Source of the DNA: Candidatus Paceibacter sp.
GTDB taxonomy: Bacteria > Patescibacteriota > Minisyncoccia > UBA6257 > JAGOQP01
Direction: 5' to 3'
NCBI GenBank assembly: GCA_020724905.1
Contig: DYGB01000001.1
Span: 1,866 to 65,865, forward strand
Length of the DNA: 64,000 bases
Shown here piece by piece: positions 1-41,616 of this stretch (positions within the stretch are counted from its first letter, which is position 1; every line of letters begins with the position of its first letter). The notes below the pieces were generated by a model. The model saw only the letters and a list, made by a program, of their open reading frames with translations. It ran no database searches and was not told where the DNA came from. The translations under genes and the position numbers were made by a program.

Positions 1-12
1 ATCGGAGTTGAT

Positions 13-1743
13 ATGAAAAGCTCTGTATACACAGAAGCATTTAGCTCTCTCTACTACGAAAGACAAGATGCTATGCAAGCACTTAAACAAGGTATCTATC
101 TACTCCAGATGTCTGGATCAGGAGACACCTGGTCAGTTCTTGCAGGACTCGCAACAGGAGTGTGTGGAACTGATGATTATGCATGTATGGGGTCTGATAT
201 TGTTGTTGGATTTGTCCCTGTTGTAGGAACGGTAAAAGATGTTGTACAGACAGTCGTATCAACCCTTATTGGGTCAGGAATGAAAGTTGTTTCCTTCTTT
301 AACGGAGATGAGCAAACAAGTCAAAAAGCAGATGAGTATTTTATCTCTGCAGGATTTGCTGCCGTAGGAGTTGTTGGTGTATTTGTAGGAGCGTACTACA
401 TAGATGAGGTAGCCAAAGCTGCAAAGTATGGAAAAGTGATAGCAGAATCTGGTGCTCTCATGAAAAAAGCAGCTACGCTCAACATAGATGACCTTGGTCC
501 TTCAGCAGCAAAGATAGGAACAGCATCTGATAAGCTCAGATTCGTAAAAAAGGAAGCACAAGAACTCATTGATTTCAGAAATGACAAGCTTCCCCTTATC
601 CACTCCAATCAAGGAAATCTTCGAGGAGCGCAGTTTGAGTTTGACATGAAGTTACGAGCTCTTGGAAACACCTTCGAACACTTTGAAACAGCAACTGAAT
701 TTGTAGGAAGATACGGTACGGATGCACCAGAAGTAACACGAGGAATGGATGTGGTGCTCTGGGCAAAGCTCAAACCAAATGCCAAAGGAGCAAGTGTGCT
801 CGACTGGGATTACTCAACGACAAAAATAGGAGTTGGAGCAACGCGCCCATCAGATCTTTCATCGTCATATAAACAACTCACTGATGTGGACATCATACTC
901 AAAGACAAAGAAACTGGAGAATACGCACTCATCTTTGTAAAACGAGGTGATGACACAGAAGCGTTTGCTAAAAATTCAGAACAACTCTACAAAGTAAGAG
1001 AATCCATAGCAATGTCACCAGACATGGAAGTATTTAAAAATTCAGACACCTTCGGTATCGTTGGACCTGATTTAATGATACAGCCAAGCATGGTGGCAAA
1101 AAATTCAACATTCCAACCTCTTGATTCAATATATGTACACAACCTCAAAACAACCCCAGTGTTTGTTGATAGTATCTATTACACAACACAGGGTAATATC
1201 GCTCTTGAATTCCACACGGAAGGAGAAGAGTCAAACAAAGGTATGTATGTATACAGAAGCATCGCAGAAGAAAATGATTTCTCTCTTGTTTCCCCTCTTA
1301 TTGTTGGACATGGAACTGATCAATCGTATCATGAATATCTTTTTACCGATGATGGCATAGTAGAAGGAACAAAGTATCAGTACCTCATTCATCAAATTCA
1401 TAGTGTAGGATTTGAAACATTCATATCCGATACTATCAATTCCCCAACAATAACATCAGTGGAAGAAGAAGTAGAAGTAACCTTCTCTTTGCAACAAAAC
1501 TACCCTAATCCATTTAATCCAGAAACGGTAATTCCATACAGTGTTGCAGAACCAAGTCATGTACGAATAGACATATACAACATACTTGGAGAAAAAATAG
1601 AAACGCTTGAAAATACAAAAAAACAAGCGGGATTACACCAGGTTATATGGAATGCTACTCATATACCATCAGGTATGTATATCTACAACATATATACAGA
1701 CACTGGGTATAAAGAAGCAAAAAAAGCTCTTTTATTGAAATAA
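13..1743 (+). CDS. Secreted/surface protein with a T9SS-type (Por secretion) C-terminal sorting domain. The reading frame is open to the window edge, so the gene may start upstream.
   Basis: The last ~85 aa (FSLQQNYPNPFNPETVIPY...IDIYNILGEKIETL...AGLHQVIWNATHIPSGMYIYNIYTDTGYKEAKKALLLK) match the Por_Secre_tail/T9SS CTD consensus. There is no stop between nt 1 and the first ATG at 13. The N-terminal part could not be classified. Confidence 0.55.
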   Translation: MKSSVYTEAFSSLYYERQDAMQALKQGIYLLQMSGSGDTWSVLAGLATGVCGTDDYACMGSDIVVGFVPVVGTVKDVVQTVVSTLIGSGMKVVSFFNGDEQTSQKADEYFISAGFAAVGVVGVFVGAYYIDEVAKAAKYGKVIAESGALMKKAATLNIDDLGPSAAKIGTASDKLRFVKKEAQELIDFRNDKLPLIHSNQGNLRGAQFEFDMKLRALGNTFEHFETATEFVGRYGTDAPEVTRGMDVVLWAKLKPNAKGASVLDWDYSTTKIGVGATRPSDLSSSYKQLTDVDIILKDKETGEYALIFVKRGDDTEAFAKNSEQLYKVRESIAMSPDMEVFKNSDTFGIVGPDLMIQPSMVAKNSTFQPLDSIYVHNLKTTPVFVDSIYYTTQGNIALEFHTEGEESNKGMYVYRSIAEENDFSLVSPLIVGHGTDQSYHEYLFTDDGIVEGTKYQYLIHQIHSVGFETFISDTINSPTITSVEEEVEVTFSLQQNYPNPFNPETVIPYSVAEPSHVRIDIYNILGEKIETLENTKKQAGLHQVIWNATHIPSGMYIYNIYTDTGYKEAKKALLLK

Positions 1744-1781
1744 TGTTCAAACGCTCTCTTTTTAAGAGAGCGTTTTATTAT

Positions 1782-2618
1782 CTACACATCTCCATTACAA
1801 ATCATATGAGCTTCTCTTTGAGCCTGAAGAAGATCAGATGCTTGTAATGATAATTTCTTTGCTACCTTCTCTACATCAATATGTAATATATCTCTCGCAA
1901 GTAACATACCCTCCTGACTGAGTCTCTCAAGTGCATATAAGGAAAGTGAAGGAAGAATAGTAATAGGATAGAGGCGTTTTGATTCAATCATTGACTCAAG
2001 CCCCCCACCATGTGGATAGCGCCATGCAAAAATAGAAAGCCCAACACACTCAGCATATGAGATAGCCTGAGATGTACATTTTGTATTAGTAACGATCCAT
2101 CCTTCATTGCTAAATGTATCTTTCCTTCCTCGAGCCTGAATAATATCCTCGTACCGGGCCTCTACATACAGAGCAACTTTCAAGTCAGATTTTATCCCTG
2201 CATTATTATGATATTTACACTCAATAAATAATCGTTTATTTCCCTTTGTTGCAACAACATCTATTTCATAAGACACACATTTCCCTGCAATAGTAACACC
2301 AACCTCAGTACTATATCCATCTTCTTGAAGAATACGAGCAACGTACTGTTCAAAGACATACCCTGCAGGACCTAAACGAAAAATAGCTTTTTTCAAAGAA
2401 TACTTCACTGCAGCAGGAGCATCATGAGAGATAAGGAAACGGAGTGCTCGTCGATAAATGTCATCTGAACTCATGCCTTCAAAAACACCTCCTGAAACAA
2501 ATGAGGAGGTATCTTTTGCAACACGAGGTGTTGTACCAGCGCGGAGAAGAGATGTTTTTAATTTCTTTTCAGAAAAACGTTCTTTTTCTCCTGATGATTT
2601 TATAATAAAAGGTTTCAT
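1782..2618 (-). CDS. ATP-cone domain fused to a Mrr-like PD-(D/E)xK restriction-endonuclease domain.
   Basis: The N-terminus (MKPFIIKSSGEKERFSEKKLKTSLLRAG...) resembles an NrdR-type ATP-cone. The central YEIDVVATKGNKRLFIECKYH matches the Mrr_cat D...E-x-K nuclease core. Confidence 0.5.
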   Translation of the reverse strand: MKPFIIKSSGEKERFSEKKLKTSLLRAGTTPRVAKDTSSFVSGGVFEGMSSDDIYRRALRFLISHDAPAAVKYSLKKAIFRLGPAGYVFEQYVARILQEDGYSTEVGVTIAGKCVSYEIDVVATKGNKRLFIECKYHNNAGIKSDLKVALYVEARYEDIIQARGRKDTFSNEGWIVTNTKCTSQAISYAECVGLSIFAWRYPHGGGLESMIESKRLYPITILPSLSLYALERLSQEGMLLARDILHIDVEKVAKKLSLQASDLLQAQREAHMICNGDV

Positions 2619-3624: not shown

Positions 3625-5034
3625 TTAGTTATCTTTTTTCTTCTCCACCGCTATATGGAGTTCGTTAAGTTGTTCCTGTGAAATAGGTGCTGGAGCATCC
3701 ATTAACAGATCACGCCCATCTCCTGTCTTTGGAAACGCAATAACTTCACGAATGTTTGGCTCACCTAACAAAAGTGAAATCAAACGATCAAGTCCCCATG
3801 CAATACCTCCATGTGGAGGAATTCCCAAAGAGAATGCCTTAAGCATATGTCCAAAGTGAGTCTCAATCTCCTCATCACTGTATCCAATGATAGAAAGAAC
3901 ACTTCGAAGTACATGTGGCTGATGAGCTCGAATACTTCCACCCCCTATTTCAAATCCGTTAAGAACAACATCATACTGTGTGGTAAGGATAGTATCAATA
4001 TCTCTCTTTTCTAAAATAGCATCAACATATTCCTTTTGAGGAGCTGAAAATGGATTGTGGGTAAAAGTCCATCCCCCACCATCAGTTTTCTCAAAAAATG
4101 GAAAATCAACAATCCATCCAAATGCTAATTCATGTGGATCACTTGTATCTTTACGAAGATCAGGTCGATCAGTTCCATACGTCTCCATTGCCTCCTTGTA
4201 GGTCAAGCGAGGAAATGGACGTTGAGAAATATGTTTTTGAGGAAACAGTGTTTCCACAAGATGCACAAGAAGCTCTTCATTTAACTGCATCACATCTTCT
4301 CGATCAACAAACGAAACCTCTAAATCCATCTGTGTAAATTCAGGTTGACGATCTCCTCGTGTATCCTCATCACGGAAACATCGAGCAATTTGAAAATAGC
4401 GCTCAACACCAGAAGCCATTAATAACTGCTTGTATTGCTGAGGAGCCTGAGGAAGTGCATAGAAAGATCCTTGATGTAATCGTGAAGGTACTACATAGTC
4501 ACGAGCTCCTTCTGGGGTAGAACGAGTAAGAATAGGTGTCTCAACTTCAAAGAATCCTTTTTGATCAAGCCATTGTCGAATTGTATGAATAATACGATGA
4601 CGCATACCAAGCATCGATGTAAGTCGCTTCCTTCGAAGATCAAGATATCGATACTTCATTCGCAATTCTTCTTTCACTTCATACCCATCACTCTCATGGA
4701 TATCAAATGGAGGAGTATCTGCTTCATTTAAAACTTCAATGCGATGGATATCAATTTCAATCTGTCCTGTTGGCAGGGCATCATTCACCATGTTATCAGG
4801 ACGCTTCTTTACTTCACCCTCAATACGAACAACCCACTCAGAACGAAGTGTGCTTGCAACAACATAGACAGACGCATCGGTCCATGGACCACAAACGGTC
4901 TGACATATACCACTTCTGTCACGAAGATCAAGAAAGATAATCTTTCCATGATCACGCCTGTTAGAAATCCACCCCTCAAGAACAACTGAAGATCCAACAT
5001 GATTAACACTTTCCCCTATCCACATCTGTTTCAT
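3625..5034 (-). CDS. aspS: Aspartyl-tRNA synthetase, class IIb, of the short archaeal/eukaryal type and possibly non-discriminating.
   Basis: An N-terminal OB-fold anticodon-binding region (GWISNRRDHGKIIFLDLRDRSG) is followed by class II motifs (FQIARCFRDEDTRGDRQPEFTQMD; GGGSIRAH). Confidence 0.8.
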   Translation of the reverse strand: MKQMWIGESVNHVGSSVVLEGWISNRRDHGKIIFLDLRDRSGICQTVCGPWTDASVYVVASTLRSEWVVRIEGEVKKRPDNMVNDALPTGQIEIDIHRIEVLNEADTPPFDIHESDGYEVKEELRMKYRYLDLRRKRLTSMLGMRHRIIHTIRQWLDQKGFFEVETPILTRSTPEGARDYVVPSRLHQGSFYALPQAPQQYKQLLMASGVERYFQIARCFRDEDTRGDRQPEFTQMDLEVSFVDREDVMQLNEELLVHLVETLFPQKHISQRPFPRLTYKEAMETYGTDRPDLRKDTSDPHELAFGWIVDFPFFEKTDGGGWTFTHNPFSAPQKEYVDAILEKRDIDTILTTQYDVVLNGFEIGGGSIRAHQPHVLRSVLSIIGYSDEEIETHFGHMLKAFSLGIPPHGGIAWGLDRLISLLLGEPNIREVIAFPKTGDGRDLLMDAPAPISQEQLNELHIAVEKKKDN

Positions 5035-5071
5035 ATACCACTTATCATACGAAAAAAGCAGAAAAACACAA

Positions 5072-5887
5072 CTATCGTTCTGTTATAACACGCAACTCAT
5101 CACCTTCCCACCACACAGATATTGTCCCATCACGATCAGTTCGAAATAACACCGAACCAATCTCCCCTACAATATCTTCTACATACGCGGCAGGATGCCC
5201 ATACGAATTCTCCCCCACACTCACCACCGATACCTGAGGAGAAACAGCTTTCAAAAACAGTGGAGAAGAAGAATATGCAGAACCATGATGAGGAATTTTA
5301 AGGACATGAGAAAAGAGTCGCTCCCCATACAGTTCCACCAACTCCTCCTCAACTGAGGCGGTAATATCACCGGTAAATAGTATACGCAGATTTCCAAGTG
5401 TTACATGAAGCACAAGAGATGCTTCATTAAGATCACGCATCACATCTTCTCCTGGAGGCCACAAAACACGAATACTCATATTCTCACCCTCTATACGATC
5501 ACCTTGAGAAAGAACAACACACGCAATAGAGTGCATACGACATAAGCTTTTCATCTCAGCCAAAGGAGGAGAAGAAAATGCGATAAAACCAATAGGAAAT
5601 GTTCTGATGATACGTGTCAGTCCTCCCATGTGATCATACTGATTGTGTGAGATAAAAATACCATCAATAAAACGAACCCCCTCTATCATCTCATTGATGT
5701 ATGAAAATACATGGTCATCTTTCCCTACATCAATAAGGAATCGTCTCCCCTGATAGGTAAGATACGCACCATCTCCCTGTCCCACTGAAATAAAATACAC
5801 TCCCTCTTCTTTTTCAAAAGAACCATCCCACACAAGAACAGCAGAGAAAAAAACACACACCACAATAAAAACATACCAATACCTCAT
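5072..5887 (-). CDS. comEC: Metallo-beta-lactamase domain of ComEC/Rec2, encoded as a separate ORF.
   Basis: ComEC-type MBL motifs are present (ISHNQYDHMGGL, IPHHGS). Its start overlaps the stop of the upstream membrane ORF by 4 nt. Confidence 0.75.
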   Translation of the reverse strand: MRYWYVFIVVCVFFSAVLVWDGSFEKEEGVYFISVGQGDGAYLTYQGRRFLIDVGKDDHVFSYINEMIEGVRFIDGIFISHNQYDHMGGLTRIIRTFPIGFIAFSSPPLAEMKSLCRMHSIACVVLSQGDRIEGENMSIRVLWPPGEDVMRDLNEASLVLHVTLGNLRILFTGDITASVEEELVELYGERLFSHVLKIPHHGSAYSSSPLFLKAVSPQVSVVSVGENSYGHPAAYVEDIVGEIGSVLFRTDRDGTISVWWEGDELRVITER

Positions 5888-7374
5888 GAAATAATTCGTG
5901 TATATAGAGATGATCGAGTATACCGACCAATGATATATACAATACTTATGTAATAGGCGACCACTCCAATAAATGGAAATGAAACATCTATTGTTCCAAT
6001 AGAGGAGAACACATTACTCACCCACAAACTCATATCAAGTAACACTGAAAGAAGTTTTACCCCCACAGAGGAAATCCCCCAAGAAACAATTCCCCCTACC
6101 CCAACAATTCCTGCTCCAAGCATAATAAAAGGAATAAGAGGAAGAATAAATATATTGGCAATAAGTCCTCCAAAAGAAACAGAAGAAAAGAAAAAGAGAA
6201 GAATTGGTAATGCTCCAATCTGAGCAGATACTGTTTCAACAAAAATTTTCCAAAGGGTATAGAGAAATGGAGATGATAACGACACAATTCCCACAAGACG
6301 AGGAGCACAATACAAAATACCCCACAAAGCAGAAAACGAAAGAAGAAATCCAACATCATATACAAGAAGGGAAGGACGGAACAAAACCATTCCAACAGCA
6401 ACACACACCATGACATACCAATGCCACTGAGGACGAGAAAAGAGAGTTCCGATAAGTACGACAGACGCCATAGCAGCAGCACGCACCACTGATGCCTCTG
6501 CCCCAACAAGAACAACAAAGACCCATACACACAATAAACTCATCCCCACACTCCATCGTCGAGAAAGAAAGAGACGAAAGAGTATCGCAATAATAAACAC
6601 TACAATTGATACATTATATCCAGACAGAGCAACAACATGAATAATGCCACTCCCAATAAGCTTCTCAACAAGATCATCGGAAAAAGAAACACTGTCTCTT
6701 CCAATAATAGTCCCTGCAGCAAATGAAGCCTCATCAAAAGGAAGAACTCTACGAAGAGATGATACAATAGACTCCCGAAACGCATATAGACTCCTCAACA
6801 CACTTCCCTCCCCCTCAAAGATAGAAAGGTTAGAGGGAAAAAATGAAACATACTCCACACCACGAGCTTTCAAATACATCGTATCAGAAGAAAGGGGCTC
6901 AAGGTCATCGTGTAATACAACTCTATCACCATACGAGACACCACTATCAAGAGAATGAAGTACTCCAATAGACATACCACTCTCATCTTCAATAATAAAA
7001 AATTGGTACGAATCATACAGCCGTGGAGAAGAAGAAACTCTTCCTTCATAGACACCATCAAGAGCGCTCTGAGAAACTGTATGCATGTGCTCATACCACA
7101 TCCCATACCCCTGCCCTATCCCCACAAACACACACCCAAAAATAAAGACCAACACATACCGACGATAGGAAGGAATAATAAAAAAAATACTTGCACCTGC
7201 AAGTAATACTGATCCACTATATGAAATCCCCACCCCTCCATAGACATAAAACAAAGCGACACCCCCAAGAAAACAGCAGAGGAGGATAAATACAATCCCT
7301 CCCCCTCCCTGCCTAGAAATCAAACCCTCTCTGTGCTGAGCTCCCCTCATCATAATGATGGAACACAGAGTCAA
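5884..7374 (-). CDS. comEC: Transmembrane part of ComEC/Rec2 (DUF4131 plus Competence domain). The start is uncertain, because the annotated start overlaps the CobO-like gene by ~60 nt.
   Basis: A polytopic membrane protein with the Competence-domain pattern, sitting directly upstream of the MBL ORF. Confidence 0.7.
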   Translation of the reverse strand: MTLCSIIMMRGAQHREGLISRQGGGGIVFILLCCFLGGVALFYVYGGVGISYSGSVLLAGASIFFIIPSYRRYVLVFIFGCVFVGIGQGYGMWYEHMHTVSQSALDGVYEGRVSSSPRLYDSYQFFIIEDESGMSIGVLHSLDSGVSYGDRVVLHDDLEPLSSDTMYLKARGVEYVSFFPSNLSIFEGEGSVLRSLYAFRESIVSSLRRVLPFDEASFAAGTIIGRDSVSFSDDLVEKLIGSGIIHVVALSGYNVSIVVFIIAILFRLFLSRRWSVGMSLLCVWVFVVLVGAEASVVRAAAMASVVLIGTLFSRPQWHWYVMVCVAVGMVLFRPSLLVYDVGFLLSFSALWGILYCAPRLVGIVSLSSPFLYTLWKIFVETVSAQIGALPILLFFFSSVSFGGLIANIFILPLIPFIMLGAGIVGVGGIVSWGISSVGVKLLSVLLDMSLWVSNVFSSIGTIDVSFPFIGVVAYYISIVYIIGRYTRSSLYTRIIS

Positions 7375-15390: not shown

Positions 15391-16575
15391 TTATCGTATC
15401 TCTGCTCCTAACTCTTCTTGAGTTTTTTGAATAATGGTTCCTTGGATATTATTTACCTCATCATTGGTAAGGGTTCTTTCTGGAGAACGATACACGATAC
15501 GAAATGTGTAACTCACTTTCCCAGAACCAAATTTTTCTTTATTTCGATAGGTGTCAGTAAGTTTAACCTCCTCAATAAGATCATCAGCACAATCACGAAC
15601 AATTTCATAATAGTTATTCAAGCTTGTTTCCTCAGGAACAATAAAAGAAATATCTCGATAGGTCATAGGGTACTTACTCACCTCTTCATATACACTATCA
15701 AGACCTCTAAACTGATCTACGATACGAGGATCATCAGACCAAAATACACGGATATCAGGAATCTGCATCTTTGCCATAGCAAGTCGCTCAAGTCCAAATC
15801 CAAATGCCCATCCGTTATATACTTCAGGATCAACTCCCATACGTTTAAGAACTTCAGTGTGCACCACTCCGGCACCAACGACTTCAAGCCATTGTTTCTC
15901 TTCTTTTTCCTCTTCATCATTCCCCTTTCTCATAACTTCAATTTCAATCTGCGTACTTGGATTCGTAAACGGAAAAGTATCTTCTAAAAATCGATAGGTA
16001 ATACCATCTCCATAGATAGCTTTGGTAATAGCGGTTAACACTTCCTGTAGTTCAGGAATTCCAATAATATGTTTTTCTTTTTTGCAGATATAGAGTCCAT
16101 CTACCTGATGGAATACAGGAAAGTGATTCCTGTCTATCTCATCTTTCCGAAATACTTTCCCATGCGCTAAAAGACCCACCTCTCCTTCTTGTTCCAATTC
16201 TTCCATCGTTTCTTTCCGACGAAGATAGTAGGGCCACATCGTTGTCGTATGTGTTCGAAGTACATGAGTATCGTCAACATAATATGTATCAGTTTCATTC
16301 CGACTTGGATGATCTGAGGGTGTGTTTAAAATATCAAAATTATCCTCAACACTGACAATTTCAGGAAAATGCATTACATCAAACTGTGTAAACATATCCA
16401 ATGCAAGCACTGCATCAACAATATATTTGATAGGAGACCTTTCTTTTCGAGACAGATCAGGTAAGTGTAAAAGACGTTGCAAGCGAAGACCCTTAACATC
16501 TTCGCGTGTTTCAACGTCTTTTCTCAGTTTTTCACTGACAGGATCTGTGATATCGATATAATGTCTATCTGTCAT
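15391..16575 (-). CDS. pheS: Phenylalanyl-tRNA synthetase alpha-type catalytic domain fused to a C-terminal FDX-ACB anticodon-binding domain (monomeric, mitochondrial-like architecture). The start is trimmed to MTDRHYIDIT because the longer frame runs into tRNA-Leu.
   Basis: Class II motifs are present (HPSRNETDTYYV; FRKDEIDRNHFPVFHQVDG; GWAFGFGLERLAMAKM). The C-terminal ~95 aa (SKYPMTYRDISFIV...YRSPERTLTNDEVNNIQ...LGAEIR) match the PheT-type FDX-ACB domain. Confidence 0.8.
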   Translation of the reverse strand: MTDRHYIDITDPVSEKLRKDVETREDVKGLRLQRLLHLPDLSRKERSPIKYIVDAVLALDMFTQFDVMHFPEIVSVEDNFDILNTPSDHPSRNETDTYYVDDTHVLRTHTTTMWPYYLRRKETMEELEQEGEVGLLAHGKVFRKDEIDRNHFPVFHQVDGLYICKKEKHIIGIPELQEVLTAITKAIYGDGITYRFLEDTFPFTNPSTQIEIEVMRKGNDEEEKEEKQWLEVVGAGVVHTEVLKRMGVDPEVYNGWAFGFGLERLAMAKMQIPDIRVFWSDDPRIVDQFRGLDSVYEEVSKYPMTYRDISFIVPEETSLNNYYEIVRDCADDLIEEVKLTDTYRNKEKFGSGKVSYTFRIVYRSPERTLTNDEVNNIQGTIIQKTQEELGAEIR

Positions 16576-16649
16576 AATAATCCCAGTGTACTGAAAAAAA
16601 GACTGAAAAACAAATAAAAACACCTCTTTAAAAGAGATGTTTATATCTG

Positions 16650-16735
16650 TGCGCGAGAGAGGACTCGAACCTCCACGGGACGTAATGCCCACTACCACCT
16701 CAAGGTAGCGCGTCTACCAATTCCGCCACCCGCGC
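16650..16735 (-). tRNA. tRNA-Leu(GAG) with a long variable arm.
   Basis: The reverse complement folds as a cloverleaf with acceptor stem GCGCGGG/CTCGCGC. The anticodon loop TTGAGGT gives anticodon GAG. The T-loop is TTCGAGT. CCA is not encoded. Confidence 0.8.
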
Positions 16736-30927: not shown

Positions 30928-32379
30928 TTATTTGTCTTTCCCTAATGCCTTTCGAATAACGTCTTTTAACTCTTTGACTGCTGTAGGTTTCTTTTCTCTT
31001 TCCTTGTGAGGTTTTTTCTTCCTCTCATCTTGTTTTAGTGTTTCAGCGAGAGACCGCTCCCCCTGTCGCGCAATCATCTCAGCAACACGCTCATGACTTC
31101 CAGCATATTCTTCCTGAATCTTTTTTTCAACCTCTCCTCGAGGAAGGGTAAACTTGTCACGAGAGTATTCCAAGATAACGTCATAGAGTGATTGTTTGGG
31201 GAGCGGTGGTGGAGGCAGTGTTCGAGCTGAGAAAGGACGAGATGACACCCCATCAATCATCAAACGGATATAGATATAGGTATTAGGAAGATTCACAAAA
31301 TCACTCGCCTCAAATTCCTCAAAGAATTCTTTTTCTAAAAATTCTGCATCATCTGCTCCTACCCGAAATACAATCATTGTTCCCACGTTACCAAAAATAG
31401 CAGATTTCACCCGTTCATTGTCATCAAGCTGATCAATATACTGGTGAGCAAGAATCAAACATAATCGATACTTTCGTGCCTCAGAAAGAATCGTTGCAAA
31501 TGATTCTGTTGCAAAGTTCTGAAACTCATCAACATAGAGATAAAAATCACGTCTCTCTTCTTGAGGAGTATCAACACGAGACATCGCAGCAAGCTGAAGT
31601 TTCGTAATAACCATAGCTCCAAGAAGCGCGGAGTTATCTTCACCAATTTTTCCTTTTGAAAGATTCACCACAAATATTTTCCCCTCATCCATGATACGTC
31701 GTGCATCAAATGATGAGTGTTCTTGTCCGATAATATTTCGAATCAACGGATTGGAGACAAACTGTCCCACCTTGTTCTGGATTGCAGCAACGGCCTCTGT
31801 TTCAAGTCGTTGTGTATAGCGAGCAAACTCATCAGCCCAGAATGAACGAACGATAGGGTCCTGAAGATTATCAACAATATTTTTCCGATACTCTTTATCA
31901 GAAAACATCTTCATAATCCCGAGCAATGTCGAATTAGGATACTCCAGCAATGCAAGAAGCGTATTGTTAAGAATATATTCCATGCGGGCAGACCAGGCAT
32001 CAGGCCATATCTTTTTAAACACAGACATAAGTCCAGAAGCAACCAAATGTCTTTGTTCAAAATCAACACGTTCAAGTGGATTAAATGCGATGGGGTAATT
32101 TGTATCAGCAGGGTTAAAATACACTACATCATTAACCCGCTCTTCAGGAATAAAGTGAAGTACTTCTTCAGCAACCTCACCATGTGGATCAACAATACAG
32201 ACTCCCTTCCCTGCTTTGATATCAGAAAGAACCATATTCAAAAGCAAGGTACTTTTCCCAGTACCTGATTTCCCAATGACATACATATGCTGTCTACGGT
32301 CAGCAGTTTTTACACCAAATATCCGTTCTTCATTTCGAAACGTTGTTTTCCCAAGGTGTAGAATATCTTTTTCATCCAT
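30928..32379 (-). CDS. P-loop ATPase of the FtsK/HerA/TraG superfamily (AAA_10/DUF87-like, T4SS coupling-protein-like).
   Basis: Walker A (YVIGKSGTGKSTLLLN), CIVDPHGE, Walker B (LYVDEFQNF) and ARKYRLCLILAHQYIDQL. Confidence 0.6.
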   Translation of the reverse strand: MDEKDILHLGKTTFRNEERIFGVKTADRRQHMYVIGKSGTGKSTLLLNMVLSDIKAGKGVCIVDPHGEVAEEVLHFIPEERVNDVVYFNPADTNYPIAFNPLERVDFEQRHLVASGLMSVFKKIWPDAWSARMEYILNNTLLALLEYPNSTLLGIMKMFSDKEYRKNIVDNLQDPIVRSFWADEFARYTQRLETEAVAAIQNKVGQFVSNPLIRNIIGQEHSSFDARRIMDEGKIFVVNLSKGKIGEDNSALLGAMVITKLQLAAMSRVDTPQEERRDFYLYVDEFQNFATESFATILSEARKYRLCLILAHQYIDQLDDNERVKSAIFGNVGTMIVFRVGADDAEFLEKEFFEEFEASDFVNLPNTYIYIRLMIDGVSSRPFSARTLPPPPLPKQSLYDVILEYSRDKFTLPRGEVEKKIQEEYAGSHERVAEMIARQGERSLAETLKQDERKKKPHKEREKKPTAVKELKDVIRKALGKDK

Positions 32380-32394
32380 AGCTTCACTATACCA

Positions 32395-33597
32395 CTATTC
32401 AAGTGGCAAATTAACTGGAGGCGTACCTTTACGAGAATCAATCTTTCCAAGACGAGGAGCACGAACTGATGAGAGAGGAAAATGAAACAGTGTTGCCAAC
32501 TCTTCTGAAGAGAGTATAGGGAACGTTTCATCAACCAAACGATTCGTATATCCAAACCGTCGTGTCTTAAGATAATCAAAGAGAATACGTTTTTTCCGTA
32601 ACATCGTTGTTTTCTTTATCTTAGGAAACAACTTCATCTTGATTCCTCCTGCAACAGTAATCAATTTGTCAGGACGAAGACCATTCATGTGCTGTGTATT
32701 GAATTGTTGCAGTGATCCCATAACTGATGAAATGTTAAGAAAGCTAAAACTATCTTTCCGATCAATATAGACGAATCGAAGATTAGCCTGGAACACATGT
32801 TTTGATGCTTTGTTCTCAATTGCTCTTATCACATCCCTATCTCCTCCTGTCATATCAGATTTTCCTTCTTCATCTTTCTTCTTTTCAATAATAGCTTTAA
32901 TTTCTTTTTGGGCGTCATCTTTGATAGAGACACCTGTTGCAGGACCCGTTGGACTTATCAAAAGCTGTATACATACCATCTCATCATCTTTCAGTTTTGA
33001 CATTGCTTCAAACAATGGAGCAAGAGGATCAATACGTTCTTCCTCCTTTGAAAGTTCATGGAAAAAATCATGATACGTACGAATAGGATACACACTGTTT
33101 TTCACAAGGGTAAATCCTGATCCCCAAAGATCATAGGTATCATCAGGAAGTGTTGCGGGAAGATCATCCATGTAGTCTGTTGTCTCAGATATTTCAGCAT
33201 CAGGATATTGGGCATAGAGTGCTGATTCTACAAGATTTCGATAATCTTTTGGTGTACGAACATAAAAAGAAATACCTCCTCCTCGAGCAACCATCTCAAA
33301 AGAAATCCATATGTCTACTTTTCCATCCAGATACTTGTTTAACGCAGGAATTCCAAATGAATAAATACCAAATAAGCTCGCAAATACTTGCTCCATTGAT
33401 TTTGGGCCTCGTGCCTCCCCATGAGGAATACGAATCTGTAATATATTCCATTCAATTCCTTCTATAAACAAATATCGTTTATAAAAAAGCCGCATTTTCC
33501 AACAGAGAACAGCGGCAAAAATAGGAACAACAATCCACAGAGCAACAGAGAGTGCTTTATATACACCGACAATAAGAATATCCTCTAAAAACGGCAT
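32395..33597 (-). CDS. Membrane-anchored hypothetical protein (two N-terminal TM helices plus a ~330-aa soluble domain), the partner of the downstream ATPase.
   Basis: The N-terminal hydrophobic segments are seen directly. The gene is packed tightly between the HTH gene and the ATPase gene. Confidence 0.4.
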   Translation of the reverse strand: MPFLEDILIVGVYKALSVALWIVVPIFAAVLCWKMRLFYKRYLFIEGIEWNILQIRIPHGEARGPKSMEQVFASLFGIYSFGIPALNKYLDGKVDIWISFEMVARGGGISFYVRTPKDYRNLVESALYAQYPDAEISETTDYMDDLPATLPDDTYDLWGSGFTLVKNSVYPIRTYHDFFHELSKEEERIDPLAPLFEAMSKLKDDEMVCIQLLISPTGPATGVSIKDDAQKEIKAIIEKKKDEEGKSDMTGGDRDVIRAIENKASKHVFQANLRFVYIDRKDSFSFLNISSVMGSLQQFNTQHMNGLRPDKLITVAGGIKMKLFPKIKKTTMLRKKRILFDYLKTRRFGYTNRLVDETFPILSSEELATLFHFPLSSVRAPRLGKIDSRKGTPPVNLPLE

Positions 33598-33600
33598 AAA

Positions 33601-34635
33601 TTATGCAAGATGATAGTGTCCCTTATCGTTTTTTTTGAAAAACTTTTTATTCTGCAAATTAAGGAAAATAGTATTGTATTTCAATACACGTTCCTGAGAA
33701 ACAAGACTTACAATATCTTCAAGAGGAAGTGAACCGTGCTTCTTTAAAATACGTTGTAACACTTCACGTGTTGTTCCTGGTTCAACACCAAACTCTCGAA
33801 GAGAATACAGTCCTCGTCCAACCAACACAAATCGCTTATCTTTTATCAATTCATTATGTACTGTTTGAGGATGAGCTTTCTTTGTATCAAATTCAATATC
33901 ATTAATATGTTGTGCAATGTCACGAAAGTGCATTGGTTCTTTTCTTTTCTTCAAAATCAAGTATGACTTGTCACGAACTGTTTTTGGAGTAATCTCAGGC
34001 CATTCTACAAGTCCAAAATCTCCAAATGGATTTACTGAAAACTTCTTTGAGTTTAACAAATAGTTAAGCGCAATAAATTCTTTAATTTTGTGTTGTTTTG
34101 TTGCCTGAGCAAATAACTGATCAAATTCTTTTCTCTCAACCAACATTTCTTTTTTACTCTTAAGAAGTGTTCGTACTTTCTTTACAAATGATTTCAATTC
34201 TTTTACATGCTCTTCTTGGGTATACCAAAATGGATAGAACTCACTATTCTCTCCAAAAATCTGAGGCTTTTTAAAAGTAGCGAATAGTAATGAAACGTAT
34301 GGTTCGCTCACATCATGATCTTTAAAGACGAATTTCAAGTCATCAACTAATAAATCTGCGCGACGAATACCACCAAGAGAGGCGATATGATCAAGTGCCT
34401 TTTCAAGAAATGAAACAGCATCAGCATTATCCTGAGCTTCTCCTCGGATAGATTTAAGTGCTGCGTTTTCAATTTGACGAACTCGTTCTCGGGTAATTCC
34501 ATATTCTTCACCAAGAGAAGCAAGCGTCTGAGGCTCTTTCCCAAGTAATCCGAATCGACGAACAACAATATCTCGCTGTCGTTTTGGGAGCGAGGAAACG
34601 AGAGAATCCAATGTAGAATGTAATGTCATACTCAA
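33601..34635 (-). CDS. DNA-binding protein with an N-terminal sigma-70 region-4-like HTH and a C-terminal HARE-HTH-like domain.
   Basis: The N-terminus (RQRDIVVRRFGLLGKEPQTLASLGEEYGITRERVRQIENAALKSIR) matches the sigma70 r4.2 consensus. The C-terminus (FRDIAQHIND...HPQTVHNELIKDKRFVLVGRGLYSLREFG) matches the HARE-HTH pattern. Confidence 0.5.
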   Translation of the reverse strand: MSMTLHSTLDSLVSSLPKRQRDIVVRRFGLLGKEPQTLASLGEEYGITRERVRQIENAALKSIRGEAQDNADAVSFLEKALDHIASLGGIRRADLLVDDLKFVFKDHDVSEPYVSLLFATFKKPQIFGENSEFYPFWYTQEEHVKELKSFVKKVRTLLKSKKEMLVERKEFDQLFAQATKQHKIKEFIALNYLLNSKKFSVNPFGDFGLVEWPEITPKTVRDKSYLILKKRKEPMHFRDIAQHINDIEFDTKKAHPQTVHNELIKDKRFVLVGRGLYSLREFGVEPGTTREVLQRILKKHGSLPLEDIVSLVSQERVLKYNTIFLNLQNKKFFKKNDKGHYHLA

Positions 34636-38145: not shown

Positions 38146-41100
38146 TTATTTCTTTACCCCTATTGTCATCGATGTTCCTCTCAACGAAAGTTCTTTTTTG
38201 GCATCAACAGACGTGCCTGGTTCATACACAAATGCAACTGCATGAACTTCTTTTTTAAGTATACGCTCATGATTCTTCAAAAACGAGATAACATCATGGT
38301 GCCCCTGTATATGAAGGGTAATCTCATCATGAAATGCATATCCTGCATCTTGTCGAAGTCCTTGTACGAAACGAATAAATTCACGAATATCTCCTTCATC
38401 TTTAAGGTCTTCACTTAATGTCGTATCAAGAACGAAGTCTTCTTCTTGAGATACTCCAAAAACAATGCGCTTCACATTCACCTCATCTTGGAGAAGCGTA
38501 ATAAGTTGTGATGCATAGGTACCAGTCAATTTCTTTCGTTTACATGAAAGTGTTGCAAGTGGTTGACGCACCTTTATCTGAGCGCTTGCTCGTTGTGCAA
38601 GCACTTCACTTGCAGCATCCCTAACCCACTGCATATCAGCGATAAGTTTTTTGTAACGTGTATCAAAGCCATGTTCTGGCCATCCTTCAAGGTGAACTGA
38701 ATCAGCTCCTTTGATGGTGTAGAGATTTTTAAGTGACTGATAGAGCGCCTCTGAGAAAAATGGAATAAAAGGAGCGGTAAGTTTACTCAATGAAAGTAAT
38801 ACATAACCAAGTACTGAGGATGTCATCTCCCATTCTTTCTTTGTCTCAGGTTTTTGTAATCGTCGTCGAGAACGACGGATATACCATCGAGACATGTCAT
38901 CAACAAATGTTTCAACAGCAGATGAGGCACGGGTAATATCATACTCATCCATAGCATCTTTTACGATCTGCTCTGTCTCTCCCAATCGTGCCAAAATCCA
39001 TACATCAAGCACATGCTCACTTTCAGGTGCAGCGGAAAGAGAAAGTTTCTTCTTTCCATATAGTTCAAGGAATGAAAATGAGTTGTACATAACAAGCAAG
39101 AATCGTCTCAAGATATTCCCCACATCAGCTTCATCAAAATTCTTTGGTTCTCCTGGAGCATTGATAGTAAAGAAATACCAACGAATTGCATCGATACCAT
39201 ACTTTTCAATAAGTGCCCATGGGTCAACAACATTTCCTTTTGACTTAGACATTTTCTGTCCATTCTTATCAAGCACCAATCCAAGAGACACCACATTTTT
39301 GTATGGTGTTCCTAGTCCCAATAGAACTGCTGTTGCCATAAGGGTATAGAACCATCCACGTGTTTGATCAATTCCCTCAGAAATAAAGTCTGCAGGAAAT
39401 CCATGTGGCTTTTTACCCTCTGCCTTAAAAGGAAAGTGGGTACTTCCATACGGCATTGAACCAGAATCAAACCACACATCAGCAACATCAGGAACTCGTT
39501 TCATTACCTCTCCAGAATCAGAACGTAGGAAAACCTCATCAACATAAGGACGATGCATATCAATCATACCAAGCGCATCAATAGGGAGGTTATCAGAAAC
39601 ACAAGATACATATCCTCCCGTAGGAATAAAGTGTTTCTTTTCTTTCTTTATCATTTCCTCCATTGATAGATGTTCCATGACAGCACGAAACATACGAAGC
39701 GTATCTCCATGACTTACCACTGCAATGGTCTTGTCTGGATATTTCCTCTGCATCTCTTTGTAAAATTCTGTTACCCGTACACGAACATCATGTAGTGATT
39801 CAGCTCCCTCAGGAGCATCCATAACAGGATCGATATCTTTTTGAGAAAAGAATCCATAAAATTCAGAAATAGCTTTATGTGCATATATTCCTGCTTCTCG
39901 TTCTTTAATACGCTCATCAACAATGACACGCTTTACCCCAAGTTCCCGAGAAAGAAGCTCAGCTGTTTGTTTCGTTCGAGTATAAGGAGAAGAGACGATA
40001 ATATCAACATTCTCTTGTACAAGCTTTTTGGCTAAATGAGCAACTTCTTCTTTTCCTTTCTCGGTAAGACGGGAGGTATATTCTTTTGTTTCCTTCCCTG
40101 AAGCCCACCATCCTTCAACATTGGCACGAGCTTCTCCATGACGAATAAGAAGGAAGGTATTACTATGAGCACGATATGTCGTGAGATCTTCTAAGCTCTT
40201 TACCACCCGAATTTCTCCTGTATCAGATTTCCAGATAGGAAGTGGCGTACCCCAGTATCGTTCACGTGAAATTGCCCAATCTTTTGCCTGCGCAATCCAT
40301 TCTCCAAAACGCCCCTCTTTAATATGTGCAGGAACCCATGATACTCCTTTATTTGCTTTAAGAAGTTCTTTACGAAGTGAAGACACTTCAAAAAACCATG
40401 CTCGACGAGCCCAATAGATAAGAGGTGAAGAACAACGCCAACAAAATGGATATTCATGATCGCCGTGACCTCCCTTAAGAAGCAATCCCTTTTCTTCAAG
40501 GTATGCACTAATAACACTATCAGCCTCCTTTATCGGCTTTCCTTCTCCAATGCATCCTTCTGCTACTTTCCCATCAGCGGTAATGGTCTGAGGAAGTATA
40601 TGTTCTTCCTTAAGACCATCAGGAAATACAAGTGAAAAATCATCCTCTCCAAAACTTGGAGCAATATGAACAAGACCAGTCCCCTCATCGGTAGAAACAA
40701 AGTCAGCGCCACGAACATAATAGCGATCAAATGGTAAAGATACCTCTCCTTCATACGGAACAGCGGGAAGATACTCCCATCCAACCATCTCGCTTCCTTT
40801 CTTTTTTACCTTACTTGTTTCTTCATATCCTTCAGGAAGCTTATGAGCCCATACCTTCTTTCCTTCAAGAGAAAACTGATGATATATCACCTTTGGATCA
40901 AGGGCGATAGCAACGTTTGCAGAAAGTGTCCATGGTGTTGTCGTCCACACTAATAAAAATTCATTCTTCTTCCCCTTGAGAGGAAAAAGTACGTAGACCG
41001 AAGGATCACTCACCGTTTGATATACTCCTGGTTGTCCTAACTCATGGTTTGCAAGTGCTGTTTGACAGCGATAACAATACGGAGTCACTTTATATGATTC

Positions 41101-41616
41101 TTTTAAATACCCTCTTTCTGCGATACGAGAAAACACCCACCACAGACTCTCTATATATTCAGGAGCATAGGTAACATATGCATTATCAAGATCAAGCCAG
41201 TATCCAATGCGTTCGGTAAGTTTCTCCCACTCATCTTTGTAGCGAAAGATAGATTCTCGTGCTTTGTTATTAAACGTATCAATACCAATACGCTCAATGT
41301 CTTTTTTTGTTTGTATCCCAAGGCTTTTTTCAGTTTCTATCTCAATAGGGAGTCCATGTGTATCCCACCCTCCCTTTCGAGGAACACGGTACCCTTGCAT
41401 TGTTTTGTACCGAAGAAAGACATCTTTCATAGCACGAGCAAGAATATGGTGTATTCCAGGACGTCCATTCGCATACGGAGGACCTTCCCAAAAATAAAAT
41501 TCCTCTCCCTCTGTATTGTGAGAAAGGCTTTTTTCAAAAATCTTTTTCTTCTTCCATAACGAAAGAATGTTTTCTTCTACTTCCGATGCATTAAATGCTT
41601 TAAGTTTTTCTAACAT
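38146..41616 (-). CDS. ileS: Isoleucyl-tRNA synthetase with a complete histidine-phosphatase (PGAM-like, RHG) domain inserted between the WxISRxRYWGxP motif and the KMSKS region.
   Basis: HIGH region (PPYANGRPGIHH), GWDTHGLPIE, the editing domain (TTTPWT...GTGLVHIAPSFGEDD) and KMSKS. The ~190-aa insert is LLIRHGEARAN...SHGDTLRM. Confidence 0.9.
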   Translation of the reverse strand: MLEKLKAFNASEVEENILSLWKKKKIFEKSLSHNTEGEEFYFWEGPPYANGRPGIHHILARAMKDVFLRYKTMQGYRVPRKGGWDTHGLPIEIETEKSLGIQTKKDIERIGIDTFNNKARESIFRYKDEWEKLTERIGYWLDLDNAYVTYAPEYIESLWWVFSRIAERGYLKESYKVTPYCYRCQTALANHELGQPGVYQTVSDPSVYVLFPLKGKKNEFLLVWTTTPWTLSANVAIALDPKVIYHQFSLEGKKVWAHKLPEGYEETSKVKKKGSEMVGWEYLPAVPYEGEVSLPFDRYYVRGADFVSTDEGTGLVHIAPSFGEDDFSLVFPDGLKEEHILPQTITADGKVAEGCIGEGKPIKEADSVISAYLEEKGLLLKGGHGDHEYPFCWRCSSPLIYWARRAWFFEVSSLRKELLKANKGVSWVPAHIKEGRFGEWIAQAKDWAISRERYWGTPLPIWKSDTGEIRVVKSLEDLTTYRAHSNTFLLIRHGEARANVEGWWASGKETKEYTSRLTEKGKEEVAHLAKKLVQENVDIIVSSPYTRTKQTAELLSRELGVKRVIVDERIKEREAGIYAHKAISEFYGFFSQKDIDPVMDAPEGAESLHDVRVRVTEFYKEMQRKYPDKTIAVVSHGDTLRMFRAVMEHLSMEEMIKKEKKHFIPTGGYVSCVSDNLPIDALGMIDMHRPYVDEVFLRSDSGEVMKRVPDVADVWFDSGSMPYGSTHFPFKAEGKKPHGFPADFISEGIDQTRGWFYTLMATAVLLGLGTPYKNVVSLGLVLDKNGQKMSKSKGNVVDPWALIEKYGIDAIRWYFFTINAPGEPKNFDEADVGNILRRFLLVMYNSFSFLELYGKKKLSLSAAPESEHVLDVWILARLGETEQIVKDAMDEYDITRASSAVETFVDDMSRWYIRRSRRRLQKPETKKEWEMTSSVLGYVLLSLSKLTAPFIPFFSEALYQSLKNLYTIKGADSVHLEGWPEHGFDTRYKKLIADMQWVRDAASEVLAQRASAQIKVRQPLATLSCKRKKLTGTYASQLITLLQDEVNVKRIVFGVSQEEDFVLDTTLSEDLKDEGDIREFIRFVQGLRQDAGYAFHDEITLHIQGHHDVISFLKNHERILKKEVHAVAFVYEPGTSVDAKKELSLRGTSMTIGVKK

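What the first reader, a model, noticed from the sequence alone, without database searches (positions are those of the whole stretch)
1480..1743. T9SS-type C-terminal sorting domain on a large secreted protein in a genome with CPR-like features
The C-terminal ~85 aa match the Por_Secre_tail (T9SS CTD) consensus almost motif for motif (QNYPNPFNP...V.IDIYNILGEKIETL...AGLHQVIWNA...PSGMYIY.I......KKALLLK). This domain is characteristic of Bacteroidota/FCB-group type IX secretion. The window's other features point to a minimal-genome, Gram-positive-like Patescibacteria-type organism, where T9SS machinery is not expected. Either the CTD is being used by a different export or attachment route, or the gene was acquired horizontally (for example from a Bacteroidota host or neighbour), or the lineage assignment is wrong.
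Basis: partly seen in the sequence, partly recalled or inferred. Interest (0 to 1): 0.55.

Follow-up and report, generated by a model that had tools for sequence, protein, structure and literature searches.

The report
T9SS-type sorting tail in a CPR bacterium
A large exported surface protein of a tiny Parcubacteria-type bacterium ends in a real copy of the "type IX secretion" sorting tail, although this lineage is thought to have no outer membrane and the 64 kb read here has no type IX genes, so the tail probably does a different job there.

Summary
Window 1501-1740 (+) encodes a C-terminal domain that passes the curated cut-offs of Pfam PF18962 (38.2 bits, cut-off 27) and TIGR04183 (34.9, cut-off 23). 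A profile of it finds solved T9SS cargo tails first in the PDB.

The ORF runs off the window. An identical independent contig gives the whole gene: 1157 aa, with a signal peptide, CARDB and He_PIG/Big_9 Ig domains, an orphan middle region, an FN3-like domain, a linker and the tail.

The host is a Patescibacteria (Paceibacterota/Parcubacteria) bacterium: every named RpoC neighbour, at 61-71% identity, is one. Three other assemblies join the gene to the same housekeeping genes. Its base composition and strand skew are native. The 64 kb window holds no T9SS gene.

Only five relatives turned up among 1.8 billion protein representatives. All share the full architecture, including the tail. One lies in a close relative of Parcubacteria LiPW_41 as a clean presence/absence insertion. 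In one orthologous pair the protein body is saturated with change, while the tail DNA is 95% identical.

Best reading: an old FCB-derived tail kept as a conserved C-terminal surface or docking module without T9SS. The mechanism is inferred, not shown. Absence of T9SS from the whole genome was not testable.

The parts
1..1743 (+). 3' half of the gene (aa 578-1157 of a 1157-aa protein, plus the stop codon). The 5' 1731 nt lie outside the window.
   Evidence: ORF list and translation. Full gene on L001 3815-7288(-), identical to the window over the overlap. The exact 1157-aa protein is on record from NCBI and Logan; the record lists a 181-kb longest contig.
130..426 (+). Conserved glycine-rich hydrophobic segment (window aa 44-142; motif TGVCxxDDYxC...VGFxPVxGTxKD...FVGAYYxDE). 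It may interact with a membrane. Function unknown.
   Evidence: Invariant columns T52 G53 C55 D59 C62 V69 G70 P73 K79 D80 Q83 across the 6 family members. Kyte-Doolittle maxima of 1.5-2.0, borderline for a membrane helix and absent in P0154. No Pfam hit. Low-confidence helices in the AF2 model.
553..1065 (+). Orphan alpha/beta domain (window aa 185-355). Weak resemblance to the restriction-endonuclease-like (PD-(D/E)xK) fold. The catalytic triad is not conserved.
   Evidence: AF2 pLDDT 60-86 in this stretch only. The best Foldseek PDB hits are nearly all PD-(D/E)xK nucleases, but none is significant (best E 0.11). The motif DVDIILKDKETGEYALIFVK has F where the acidic residue is expected, and this position varies in the family. 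One member hits DUF4365 at E 0.05.
1159..1440 (+). FN3-like beta-sandwich domain just before the tail (window aa 387-480).
   Evidence: AF2 model m4ecdf8b1ac7f, strands E8-E101, pLDDT about 75-80. Foldseek PDB hits are tandem FNIII pairs. It aligns with the matching module of P0001 and P0002.
1441..1500 (+). Flexible linker between the FN3-like domain and the tail.
   Evidence: pLDDT below 50 for model residues 108-124. This is the same Ig-domain / unstructured linker / tail layout described for RgpB (PMC4804311).
1501..1743 (+). T9SS type-A C-terminal domain (Por_Secre_tail) up to the stop codon. Motifs: YPNPFNP, LGxxI, AG, SGxY and KKALLLK at the very end.
   Evidence: PF18962 at 38.2 bits (cut-off 27) and TIGR04183 at 34.9 bits (cut-off 23). 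AF2 gives a six-strand beta sandwich with pLDDT 85-92. Motif alignment. PDB profile hits to 8glk_D and 8glj_D.
1749..1785 (+). Intrinsic-terminator-like hairpin between the gene and the convergent neighbour at 1782-2618(-).
   Evidence: 12-bp stem with a T-rich tail; 1 found against 0.0 expected in shuffles.

Best explanation
The window carries the last 580 codons of a native, strain-variable gene of a Parcubacteria/Paceibacterota (CPR) bacterium. It encodes a 1157-aa protein with the look of a surface adhesin: a Sec signal peptide, an N-terminal domain, CARDB, a He_PIG/Big_9 Ig domain, further beta domains, an orphan middle region, an FN3-like domain, a flexible linker and a genuine homologue of the T9SS type-A C-terminal domain (CTD). 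Shown here: the domain identity, the full architecture, the CPR host, the physical linkage to CPR housekeeping genes, the absence of T9SS genes in 64 kb, and a six-member family that all keep the tail. Inferred: the tail, or the whole gene, came long ago from FCB-type bacteria, where this 'QNYPNPFNP' tail type is common, and has been kept under constraint. The Sec pathway alone would put the protein outside a cell that has no outer membrane. [quoted passage not shown] It most likely serves as a conserved C-terminal Ig-like module that holds the protein on the cell envelope or docks it to a partner protein. Solved CTDs dimerise by swapping their last strand, and this one may too. The fast-changing N-terminal body would then make the contacts with the outside world or a host.
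For: - Domain identity.
- Full-length protein with signal peptide and ribosome-binding site.
- CPR host: the named RpoC neighbours are Patescibacteria, apart from one labelled only 'bacterium'. Gene content fits (ComEC, DprA, split transketolase, VirD4-like ATPase + DUF8128, PrsW, SecDF).
- Linkage: L001, L002 and L003 from three sequencing runs are identical to the window apart from contig-end artefacts, and all bridge the gene to the Mrr-like gene, NDK and AspRS.
- Native composition: GC 0.405 against 0.397 +/- 0.028. GC3 skew is -0.32, like the other + strand genes (-0.12 to -0.49) and unlike the - strand genes (+0.35).
- No T9SS or outer-membrane biogenesis family among the window's genes, and no second CTD.
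- Family: an exhaustive HMMER search of 1.84 billion representatives found only P0150-P0154. All are 1033-1204 aa and homologous end to end, and all carry a Por_Secre_tail match (four of five above Pfam's cut-off of 27 bits; P0151 at 26.7).
- P0152 sits beside CCA-enzyme and EamA genes that are 96.7% and 94.3% identical to those of Parcubacteria LiPW_41. It is a clean 3.7-kb presence/absence difference.
- Constraint on the tail: in the syntenic pair P0150/P0151 the body has pS 0.63-0.75 and 31-54% aa identity, and the similarity block starts at aa 1036, the tail boundary. The tail is 94% identical in protein and 95.3% in DNA, with pS 0.107. Flanking genes have pS 0.52-0.65.
- Literature: T9SS is described as confined to Bacteroidota or the FCB group (PMC11205867; PMC10202324). 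The outer membrane may have been lost on the CPR/Chloroflexota stem (PMC12329446).
Against: - Only 64 kb of the genome was searched, so T9SS genes elsewhere are not excluded.
- Nothing here shows where the protein ends up, or whether the tail is cleaved.
- The lineage of four of the six family members (L013, L018, L019, L020) could not be determined, so the family may be mainly non-CPR.
- The very low synonymous divergence of the P0150/P0151 tail points to recent recombination or gene conversion at least as much as to purifying selection (dN/dS 0.27 on few changes).
- Tails within the family are no more alike (35-48%) than they are to FCB tails (30-46%), so there is no CPR-specific tail signature.
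- The signal peptide was judged by eye; no predictor was run.
Confidence: 0.55

Rival explanations
1. Vestigial tail. The gene or its C-terminal module was captured from an FCB bacterium, and the CTD persists as a neutral Ig-like spacer with no sorting or anchoring role in the CPR cell.
For: The nearest relatives outside the family look like FCB T9SS cargo; the one with an organism name is from Cloacimonadota. No CPR-specific tail signature was seen. The gene is accessory: it is absent at the same site in LiPW_41. It has its own Shine-Dalgarno motif, unlike most of its neighbours.
Against: The tail keeps its motifs and its strictly terminal position in all six members, although they share only 25-39% identity overall. 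It is the best-conserved part in the one orthologous pair. The composition is fully ameliorated, so there has been ample time for a useless tail to decay.
Confidence: 0.18
2. Host-directed mimicry. The CPR cell exports the protein by Sec. The tail then binds the T9SS surface components (the PorV shuttle or the attachment complex) of an FCB host cell, fixing the symbiont or its protein to the host.
For: The tail is of the same sequence type as those of co-occurring FCB-type bacteria, with intact terminal strands. The body is hypervariable and the tail conserved, as expected if the tail must fit a conserved external partner. CPR bacteria are described as episymbionts (PMC7906910, abstract).
Against: No host is known for this organism. 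There is no direct evidence of binding. T9SS components meet CTDs as they emerge from the translocon, not from outside the cell. The idea rests on inference alone.
Confidence: 0.08
3. Conventional T9SS cargo. The organism, or this CPR sublineage, has an outer layer and a complete T9SS encoded outside the window.
For: The domain passes every sequence test for a type-A CTD. Only 64 kb of the genome was inspected.
Against: The host is a Patescibacteria bacterium. Reviews describe T9SS as limited to Bacteroidota or the FCB group. The outer membrane is thought to have been lost on the CPR stem. No T9SS, Bam, Lpt or Lpx family is present in the window.
Confidence: 0.04
4. Assembly or binning artefact. 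A fragment of an FCB genome was joined to a CPR contig.
For: The JGI contig Ga0246236_1000055 appears to end inside the gene, near window position 1456 (coordinates derived). This shows that assemblers can break there.
Against: Three other assemblies from different runs cross the junction with 100% identity. GC, GC3 and the strand-specific skew match the replicon. The terminator is shared with the convergent CPR gene. A second family member lies inside Parcubacteria synteny.
Confidence: 0.02

Closest known systems
T9SS type-A CTD cargo proteins of FCB-group bacteria (TIGR04183 / PF18962), e.g. Cloacimonadota MASR2M64_12800 (P0002), Flavobacterium cargo tails in PDB 8glj/8glk, and gingipain RgpB
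   Same: N-terminal Sec signal plus a tail of about 80 aa at the extreme C-terminus. The same motifs (YPNPFNP, SGxY, KxxLLK). An Ig-like sandwich preceded by another Ig-like domain and a flexible linker. Scores above the curated cut-offs.
   Different: The host is a Patescibacteria bacterium, with no T9SS gene in 64 kb and, by lineage, probably no outer membrane. The passenger is not an enzyme but an orphan multi-domain protein known from only six sequences.
[quoted passage not shown] 2021, PMC8286594)
   Same: A long multi-Ig 'stalk' protein (CARDB, He_PIG/Big_9/cadherin-like, FN3-like) with a Por_Secre_tail at the C-terminus, where that study treats the domain as a cell anchor.
   Different: That survey found such proteins 'mostly in Bacteroidetes'. 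Here the organism is CPR. The protein also carries a conserved hydrophobic segment and an alpha/beta domain between the stalk and the tail.
FlgD Ig-like domain (PF13860)
   Same: A weak sequence resemblance of the same beta sandwich (E 0.0017 for the window protein; PDB FlgD chains at E 0.007-0.01).
   Different: The score is below Pfam's cut-off (18.7 against 27), while Por_Secre_tail is above its own. The terminal position and the KxxLLK ending are those of a CTD, not of FlgD.
Polymorphic-toxin layout (pre-toxin TG segment followed by a nuclease-fold toxin)
   Same: From my own knowledge, the VGFxPVVGTxKD glycine-rich segment followed by a possible PD-(D/E)xK-fold domain recalls it.
   Different: There is no Pfam PT-TG or toxin hit. 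The putative catalytic residues are not conserved. The domain is not C-terminal. The downstream gene is convergent, so it is not placed like an immunity gene.

Membership tests
T9SS type-A C-terminal domain (TIGR04183 / Pfam PF18962), the domain family | Profile-HMM score above the curated cut-off | tested here: met
   PF18962 at 38.2 bits (cut-off 27) and TIGR04183 at 34.9 bits (cut-off 23). Four of the five relatives also pass Pfam's cut-off, and P0151 scores 26.7.
T9SS type-A C-terminal domain (TIGR04183 / Pfam PF18962), the domain family | Located at the extreme C-terminus of a protein that also has an N-terminal Sec signal peptide | tested here: met
   The domain ends 5 aa before the stop codon. 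The N-terminus is MLHQKNAWITLLFFFLFSTLYAQ on the full gene. The signal peptide was judged by eye; no predictor was available.
T9SS type-A C-terminal domain (TIGR04183 / Pfam PF18962), the domain family | Ig-like beta sandwich (seven strands in RgpB), typically after another Ig-like domain and a flexible linker, with conserved last two strands | tested here: inconclusive
T9SS type-A C-terminal domain (TIGR04183 / Pfam PF18962), the domain family | Sequence relationship to experimentally established T9SS cargo tails | tested here: met
   A profile of 10 tails hits 8glk_D (E 2.6e-4) and 8glj_D (E 6.3e-4) over the full domain, then the gingipain CTDs and PorU.
Functional T9SS cargo (a substrate of a type IX secretion system) | T9SS core genes (PorK/L/M/N or GldK-N, SprA/Sov, PorT, PorU, PorV) in the same genome | tested here: inconclusive
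   None is present among the genes of the 64-kb window. The rest of the genome could not be read with the tools and caps available.
Functional T9SS cargo (a substrate of a type IX secretion system) | A two-membrane envelope whose outer membrane the cargo must cross | not testable with these tools
   [quoted passage not shown] No Bam, Lpt or Lpx genes in the window.
Functional T9SS cargo (a substrate of a type IX secretion system) | Tail removed by PorU and cargo attached to anionic LPS or released | not testable with these tools
   Needs proteomics or biochemistry.
Patescibacteria (CPR), class-level Paceibacteria/Parcubacteria genome | Core information-processing genes closest to those of Patescibacteria | tested here: met
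   RpoC: the best hits that carry an organism name (61-71% identity) are Paceibacterota, Patescibacteria group, Parcubacteria, Wolfebacteria and Nealsonbacteria, plus one labelled only 'bacterium'. The unnamed best hits reach 74%.
Polymorphic toxin (PT-TG pre-toxin segment + C-terminal toxin + immunity gene) | Recognised pre-toxin or toxin domain, toxin at the C-terminal end, and an adjacent co-directional immunity gene | tested here: not met
   No Pfam hit in the middle region for any of the 6 members at E <= 10, apart from stray single hits. The C-terminus is the CTD. The neighbouring gene is convergent.
PD-(D/E)xK nuclease fold (middle alpha/beta domain) | Significant structural match and a conserved D...(D/E)xK catalytic motif | tested here: not met
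   Best Foldseek E is 0.11, with none at or below 0.001. The acidic residue of the (D/E)xK motif is F in the target and varies (Q, Q, F, E, Q) in the family; the lysine is lost in two members.

The most novel reading that the evidence does not exclude
The tail is not a leftover. It is a working signal used outside T9SS cells: a Parcubacteria symbiont exports a hypervariable adhesin by Sec alone and uses the conserved T9SS-type tail as a key that fits the T9SS surface machinery (PorV shuttle or attachment complex) of an FCB-group host, so that a secretion signal has become a host-recognition ligand. A milder version, also not excluded, is a new T9SS-independent C-terminal sorting or anchoring route in single-membrane CPR cells that reads the same tail.
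Probability: 0.1. Interest if true: 0.85.

Novelty: new variant of a known kind. Interest (0 to 1): 0.45.

Why it matters
The T9SS C-terminal domain is treated in the literature as a signal that has meaning only together with the outer-membrane T9SS machine of Bacteroidota and the FCB group. Here an intact tail is found in a Parcubacteria genome, inside a small family whose bodies diverge beyond recognition while the tail stays nearly unchanged. That suggests the domain can be useful without the machine, as an envelope anchor, a docking module or a ligand for a host.

CPR bacteria are thought to live attached to other cells, and almost nothing is known about how their surface proteins are held or how hosts are recognised. 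A conserved, easily recognised tail on a hypervariable surface protein is an experimentally tractable handle on that question. If the tail proves to be a relic, the case is still a dated example of gene flow from FCB bacteria into CPR genomes.

Tried and rejected
1. A genome-contig scan with the full protein returned only three Rhodothermales loci matching the Ig domain at 26% identity.
2. Both metagenome-contig scans (a conserved-segment alignment and the full protein) found nothing. The upstream neighbours of the gene therefore remain unknown; only 92 nt are available on L001.
3. The word-based homologue search with the 580-aa query was probably swamped by tail-bearing proteins (5 hits). With the middle region alone it found nothing. 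Only the exhaustive HMMER search found the family.
4. Codon usage looked foreign at first (z = -2). I rejected this as a sign of transfer, because the deviation is the strand-specific third-position skew shared by all + strand genes.
6. The polymorphic-toxin and nuclease idea for the middle region was considered but is not supported.
7. A membrane-helix reading of the hydrophobic segment is borderline only, and one member lacks it.
8. The lineage of L013, L018, L019 and L020 could not be assigned. Cluster look-ups gave no organism names. MnmA of L018 is only 37% identical to the window's MnmA. Use of Shine-Dalgarno motifs does not discriminate.
9. Literature searches found no paper that discusses T9SS tails in CPR or Patescibacteria. 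A search by sample accession numbers returned only noise.
Full report
**The observation.** Frame 1 of window 1-1743 is an open reading frame that runs off the 5' end of the window.
- Pfam PF18962 (Por_Secre_tail) matches aa 501-575 of the 580 encoded residues at 38.2 bits (gathering score 27, E 1.8e-9), covering 71 of 75 profile positions.
- NCBIfam TIGR04183 scores 34.9 bits against a cut-off of 23.
- The related FlgD_ig and CHU_C models stay below their cut-offs.
- The domain stops five residues before the stop codon. A terminator-like hairpin follows at 1749-1775.
- A profile built from this tail and nine others finds, as its best PDB matches, the cargo tails in the T9SS entries 8glk and 8glj (E 2.6e-4 and 6.3e-4, full domain length). 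FlgD Ig domains, gingipain tails and PorU follow.

**The whole protein.** Looking up the neighbouring gene by exact sequence returned Logan contig L001, which carries the complete gene (3815-7288, minus strand).
- L001, L002 and L003 come from three sequencing runs. They are identical to the window over 5.5, 5.1 and 4.5 kb, apart from a few bases at contig ends.
- The exact 1157-aa protein is on record from NCBI and Logan, and that record lists a 181-kb longest contig.
- It starts MLHQKNAWITLLFFFLFSTLYAQ behind a GGGAGG ribosome-binding site. I read this as a Sec signal peptide, by eye.
- Pfam finds CARDB (179-279) and a He_PIG/Big_9/PKD-type Ig domain (288-373).
- The part encoded in the window has four pieces:
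  - a conserved glycine-rich hydrophobic segment;
  - an orphan alpha/beta domain;
  - an FN3-like sandwich followed by a linker of low predicted order;
  - the tail, modelled as a six-strand sandwich at pLDDT 85-92.
- The Ig-domain / flexible linker / tail layout is the one solved for gingipain RgpB (PMC4804311).

**The host.** RpoC from the window has 120 listed relatives.
- Every one that carries an organism name is Paceibacterota, Patescibacteria group, Parcubacteria, Wolfebacteria or Nealsonbacteria (61-71% identity), apart from one labelled only 'bacterium'. The unnamed best hits reach 74%.
- Gene content fits: ComEC, DprA, split transketolase, a VirD4-like ATPase with DUF8128, PrsW, SecDF, and glycolysis and pentose-phosphate enzymes.
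- The lineage assignment is therefore right.
- The gene is not a chimera. Four assemblies agree on the junction. GC is 0.405 against 0.397 +/- 0.028 for the other genes.
- Its odd codon score (z = -2) is explained by strand. Its GC3 skew is -0.32, like the other + strand genes (-0.12 to -0.49). Genes on the - strand average +0.35. A gene that has taken on the strand-specific mutational skew has been in place for a long time.

**T9SS machinery.** Pfam and NCBIfam assignments now cover essentially all genes of the window.
- None is a T9SS component or an outer-membrane biogenesis protein.
- No second tail is encoded in the window or in any CPR locus I fetched.
- This is 64 kb only. The rest of the genome was out of reach.
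- Reviews describe T9SS as confined to Bacteroidota or the FCB group. The outer membrane may have been lost on the stem leading to CPR.
- I found no paper that discusses T9SS tails in CPR.

**Relatives.** The FN3-like + tail module has its nearest relatives outside the family, at 32-37% identity, in what look like FCB-type T9SS cargo.
- These are a Cloacimonadota protein, M14-type peptidases with the same tail, and a protein beside GH92/GH125 glycosidases on a 58% GC contig.
- The middle region had no word-based hits.
- An exhaustive HMMER search of 1.84 billion representatives found exactly five relatives, P0150-P0154.
- All five are 1033-1204 aa. All align with the target from signal peptide to tail (25-39% identity) and all carry a Por_Secre_tail match.
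- Tails within the family are no closer to each other (35-48%) than to FCB tails (30-46%).
- The tail is therefore an ordinary member of the 'QNYPNPFNP' tail type, and it was present in the family's ancestor.

**Where the relatives live.**
- P0152 lies on contig L014 next to a CCA-adding enzyme and an EamA protein. These are 96.7% and 94.3% identical to those of 'Parcubacteria group bacterium LiPW_41'.
- In LiPW_41 itself the CCA terminator is followed after 22 bp by sequence that in L014 resumes only after the 3.7-kb P0152 gene. The gene is a clean presence/absence difference between close relatives.
- It sits beside tRNA-Ala and tRNA-Pro genes and a duplicated 25-nt tRNA-end fragment.
- At least two of the six members are thus in Parcubacteria.
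- The other four contigs (GC 0.34-0.46) could not be placed.

**Constraint on the tail.** P0150 and P0151 are orthologues in the same gene neighbourhood (DUF1761 and DoxX upstream, a Zincin_1 gene downstream).
- Flanking genes are 88-93% identical in protein, with pS 0.52-0.65.
- The body of the gene has only 31-54% protein identity, with synonymous sites saturated (pS 0.63-0.75).
- DNA similarity resumes at L013 position 5628, which is aa 1036, the start of the tail.
- The tail is 94% identical in protein and 95.3% in DNA, with pS 0.107.
- About 6 synonymous differences were seen where about 31 are expected from the flanks (roughly 60 synonymous sites assumed; binomial P about 1e-11).
- The body is therefore hypervariable or exchanged as old alleles. 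The tail has been kept, and apparently recently homogenised by recombination.
- This shows the tail is treated differently from the rest of the protein. It does not by itself prove purifying selection.

**What it most likely does.** Shown: a Sec-type signal, an adhesin-like chain of Ig domains, a true T9SS-type tail, a CPR host, no T9SS genes nearby, a family-wide conserved tail on a fast-changing body, and strain-variable presence.
- Inferred: in a cell without an outer membrane, Sec export alone puts the protein outside. [quoted passage not shown]
- I favour the reading that it is a conserved C-terminal Ig-like module that holds the protein at the envelope or docks it to a partner.
- My confidence in the package as a whole is about 0.55. 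It is much higher for domain identity and host, and lower for the role of the tail.

| Rival reading | Confidence |
|---|---|
| Vestigial relic of an old transfer | 0.18 |
| Ligand for the T9SS surface machinery of an FCB host | 0.08 |
| Complete T9SS elsewhere in the genome | 0.04 |
| Assembly artefact | 0.02 |

**The middle region.**
- The segment TGVCxxDDYxC...VGFxPVxGTxKD recalls, from my own knowledge, the pre-toxin TG segment of polymorphic toxins.
- The following domain has a strand order, and weak Foldseek neighbours, of the restriction-endonuclease-like fold.
- No profile supports either idea. No structural match is significant. The would-be catalytic residues vary. I leave this as a lead.

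**Verdict.** The lineage is CPR, the tail is genuine, and transfer, if any, is old.
- The tail annotation itself is already visible in precomputed Pfam hits. What is new is the context and the family-level pattern.
- I rate it a new variant of a known kind, of moderate interest.

Noticed in passing
window 15391-16698 (-): A 435-aa PheRS-like protein combines the class II core (tRNA-synt_2d) with a C-terminal FDX-ACB anticodon-binding domain in one chain. From my own knowledge, this is the layout of the monomeric mitochondrial-type PheRS rather than the bacterial alpha2beta2 enzyme. No beta-subunit gene is adjacent.
   Followed up: no
window 38146-41616 (-): The IleRS is 1156 aa long and has a histidine-phosphatase (His_Phos_1) hit between two tRNA-synt_1 stretches, which suggests an inserted domain.
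   Followed up: no
window 33601-34635 (-): A 344-aa protein has sigma-70 region 4 at its N-terminus (aa 3-69) and a HARE-HTH / RNA-polymerase-delta-like domain at aa 223-281. This is an unusual combination.
   Followed up: no
window 30928-33597 (-): A VirD4/TrwB-like DUF87 ATPase lies next to a DUF8128 protein. This may be part of a DNA or protein transfer apparatus in this CPR genome.
   Followed up: no
window 52061-52933 (+): An rve-family transposase has GC 0.474 and the most atypical codon usage in the window. It is a likely recent insertion beside LeuRS.
   Followed up: no
window, whole: Gene orientation is extremely biased (nearly all genes are on the - strand). Third-position GC skew is strongly strand-specific: +0.35 for - strand genes and -0.12 to -0.49 for + strand genes. 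This can mimic a 'foreign' codon signature.
   Followed up: yes
L013 5628-5890 vs L019 4278-4540: The tail DNA of the orthologues P0150 and P0151 is 95.3% identical (pS 0.107), while flanking genes have pS 0.52-0.65 and the gene body is saturated. The similarity block starts exactly at the tail boundary. This suggests recent recombination or gene conversion limited to the tail.
   Followed up: yes
L014 3584-7316 vs L015 3713-3735: The family member P0152 is a clean 3.7-kb presence/absence difference between two close Parcubacteria relatives. It lies next to tRNA-Ala and tRNA-Pro genes and a duplicated 25-nt tRNA-end fragment that looks like an integration scar.
   Followed up: partly
L001, L013, L014, L018, L019, L020 gene starts: Every family gene is preceded by a Shine-Dalgarno-like motif, whereas most neighbouring genes in the same loci are not.
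   Followed up: partly
window 1782-2618 (-): The convergent neighbour is a 278-aa protein with weak Mrr_cat / AF1548-like restriction-endonuclease-fold hits and a faint ATP-cone hit. It shares the terminator hairpin with the target gene.
   Followed up: no
L015/L016 12984-13710 (LiPW_41): A 1679-aa protein with no Pfam hit at all begins near the end of the fetched LiPW_41 locus. It is another very large orphan protein in a Parcubacteria genome.
   Followed up: no
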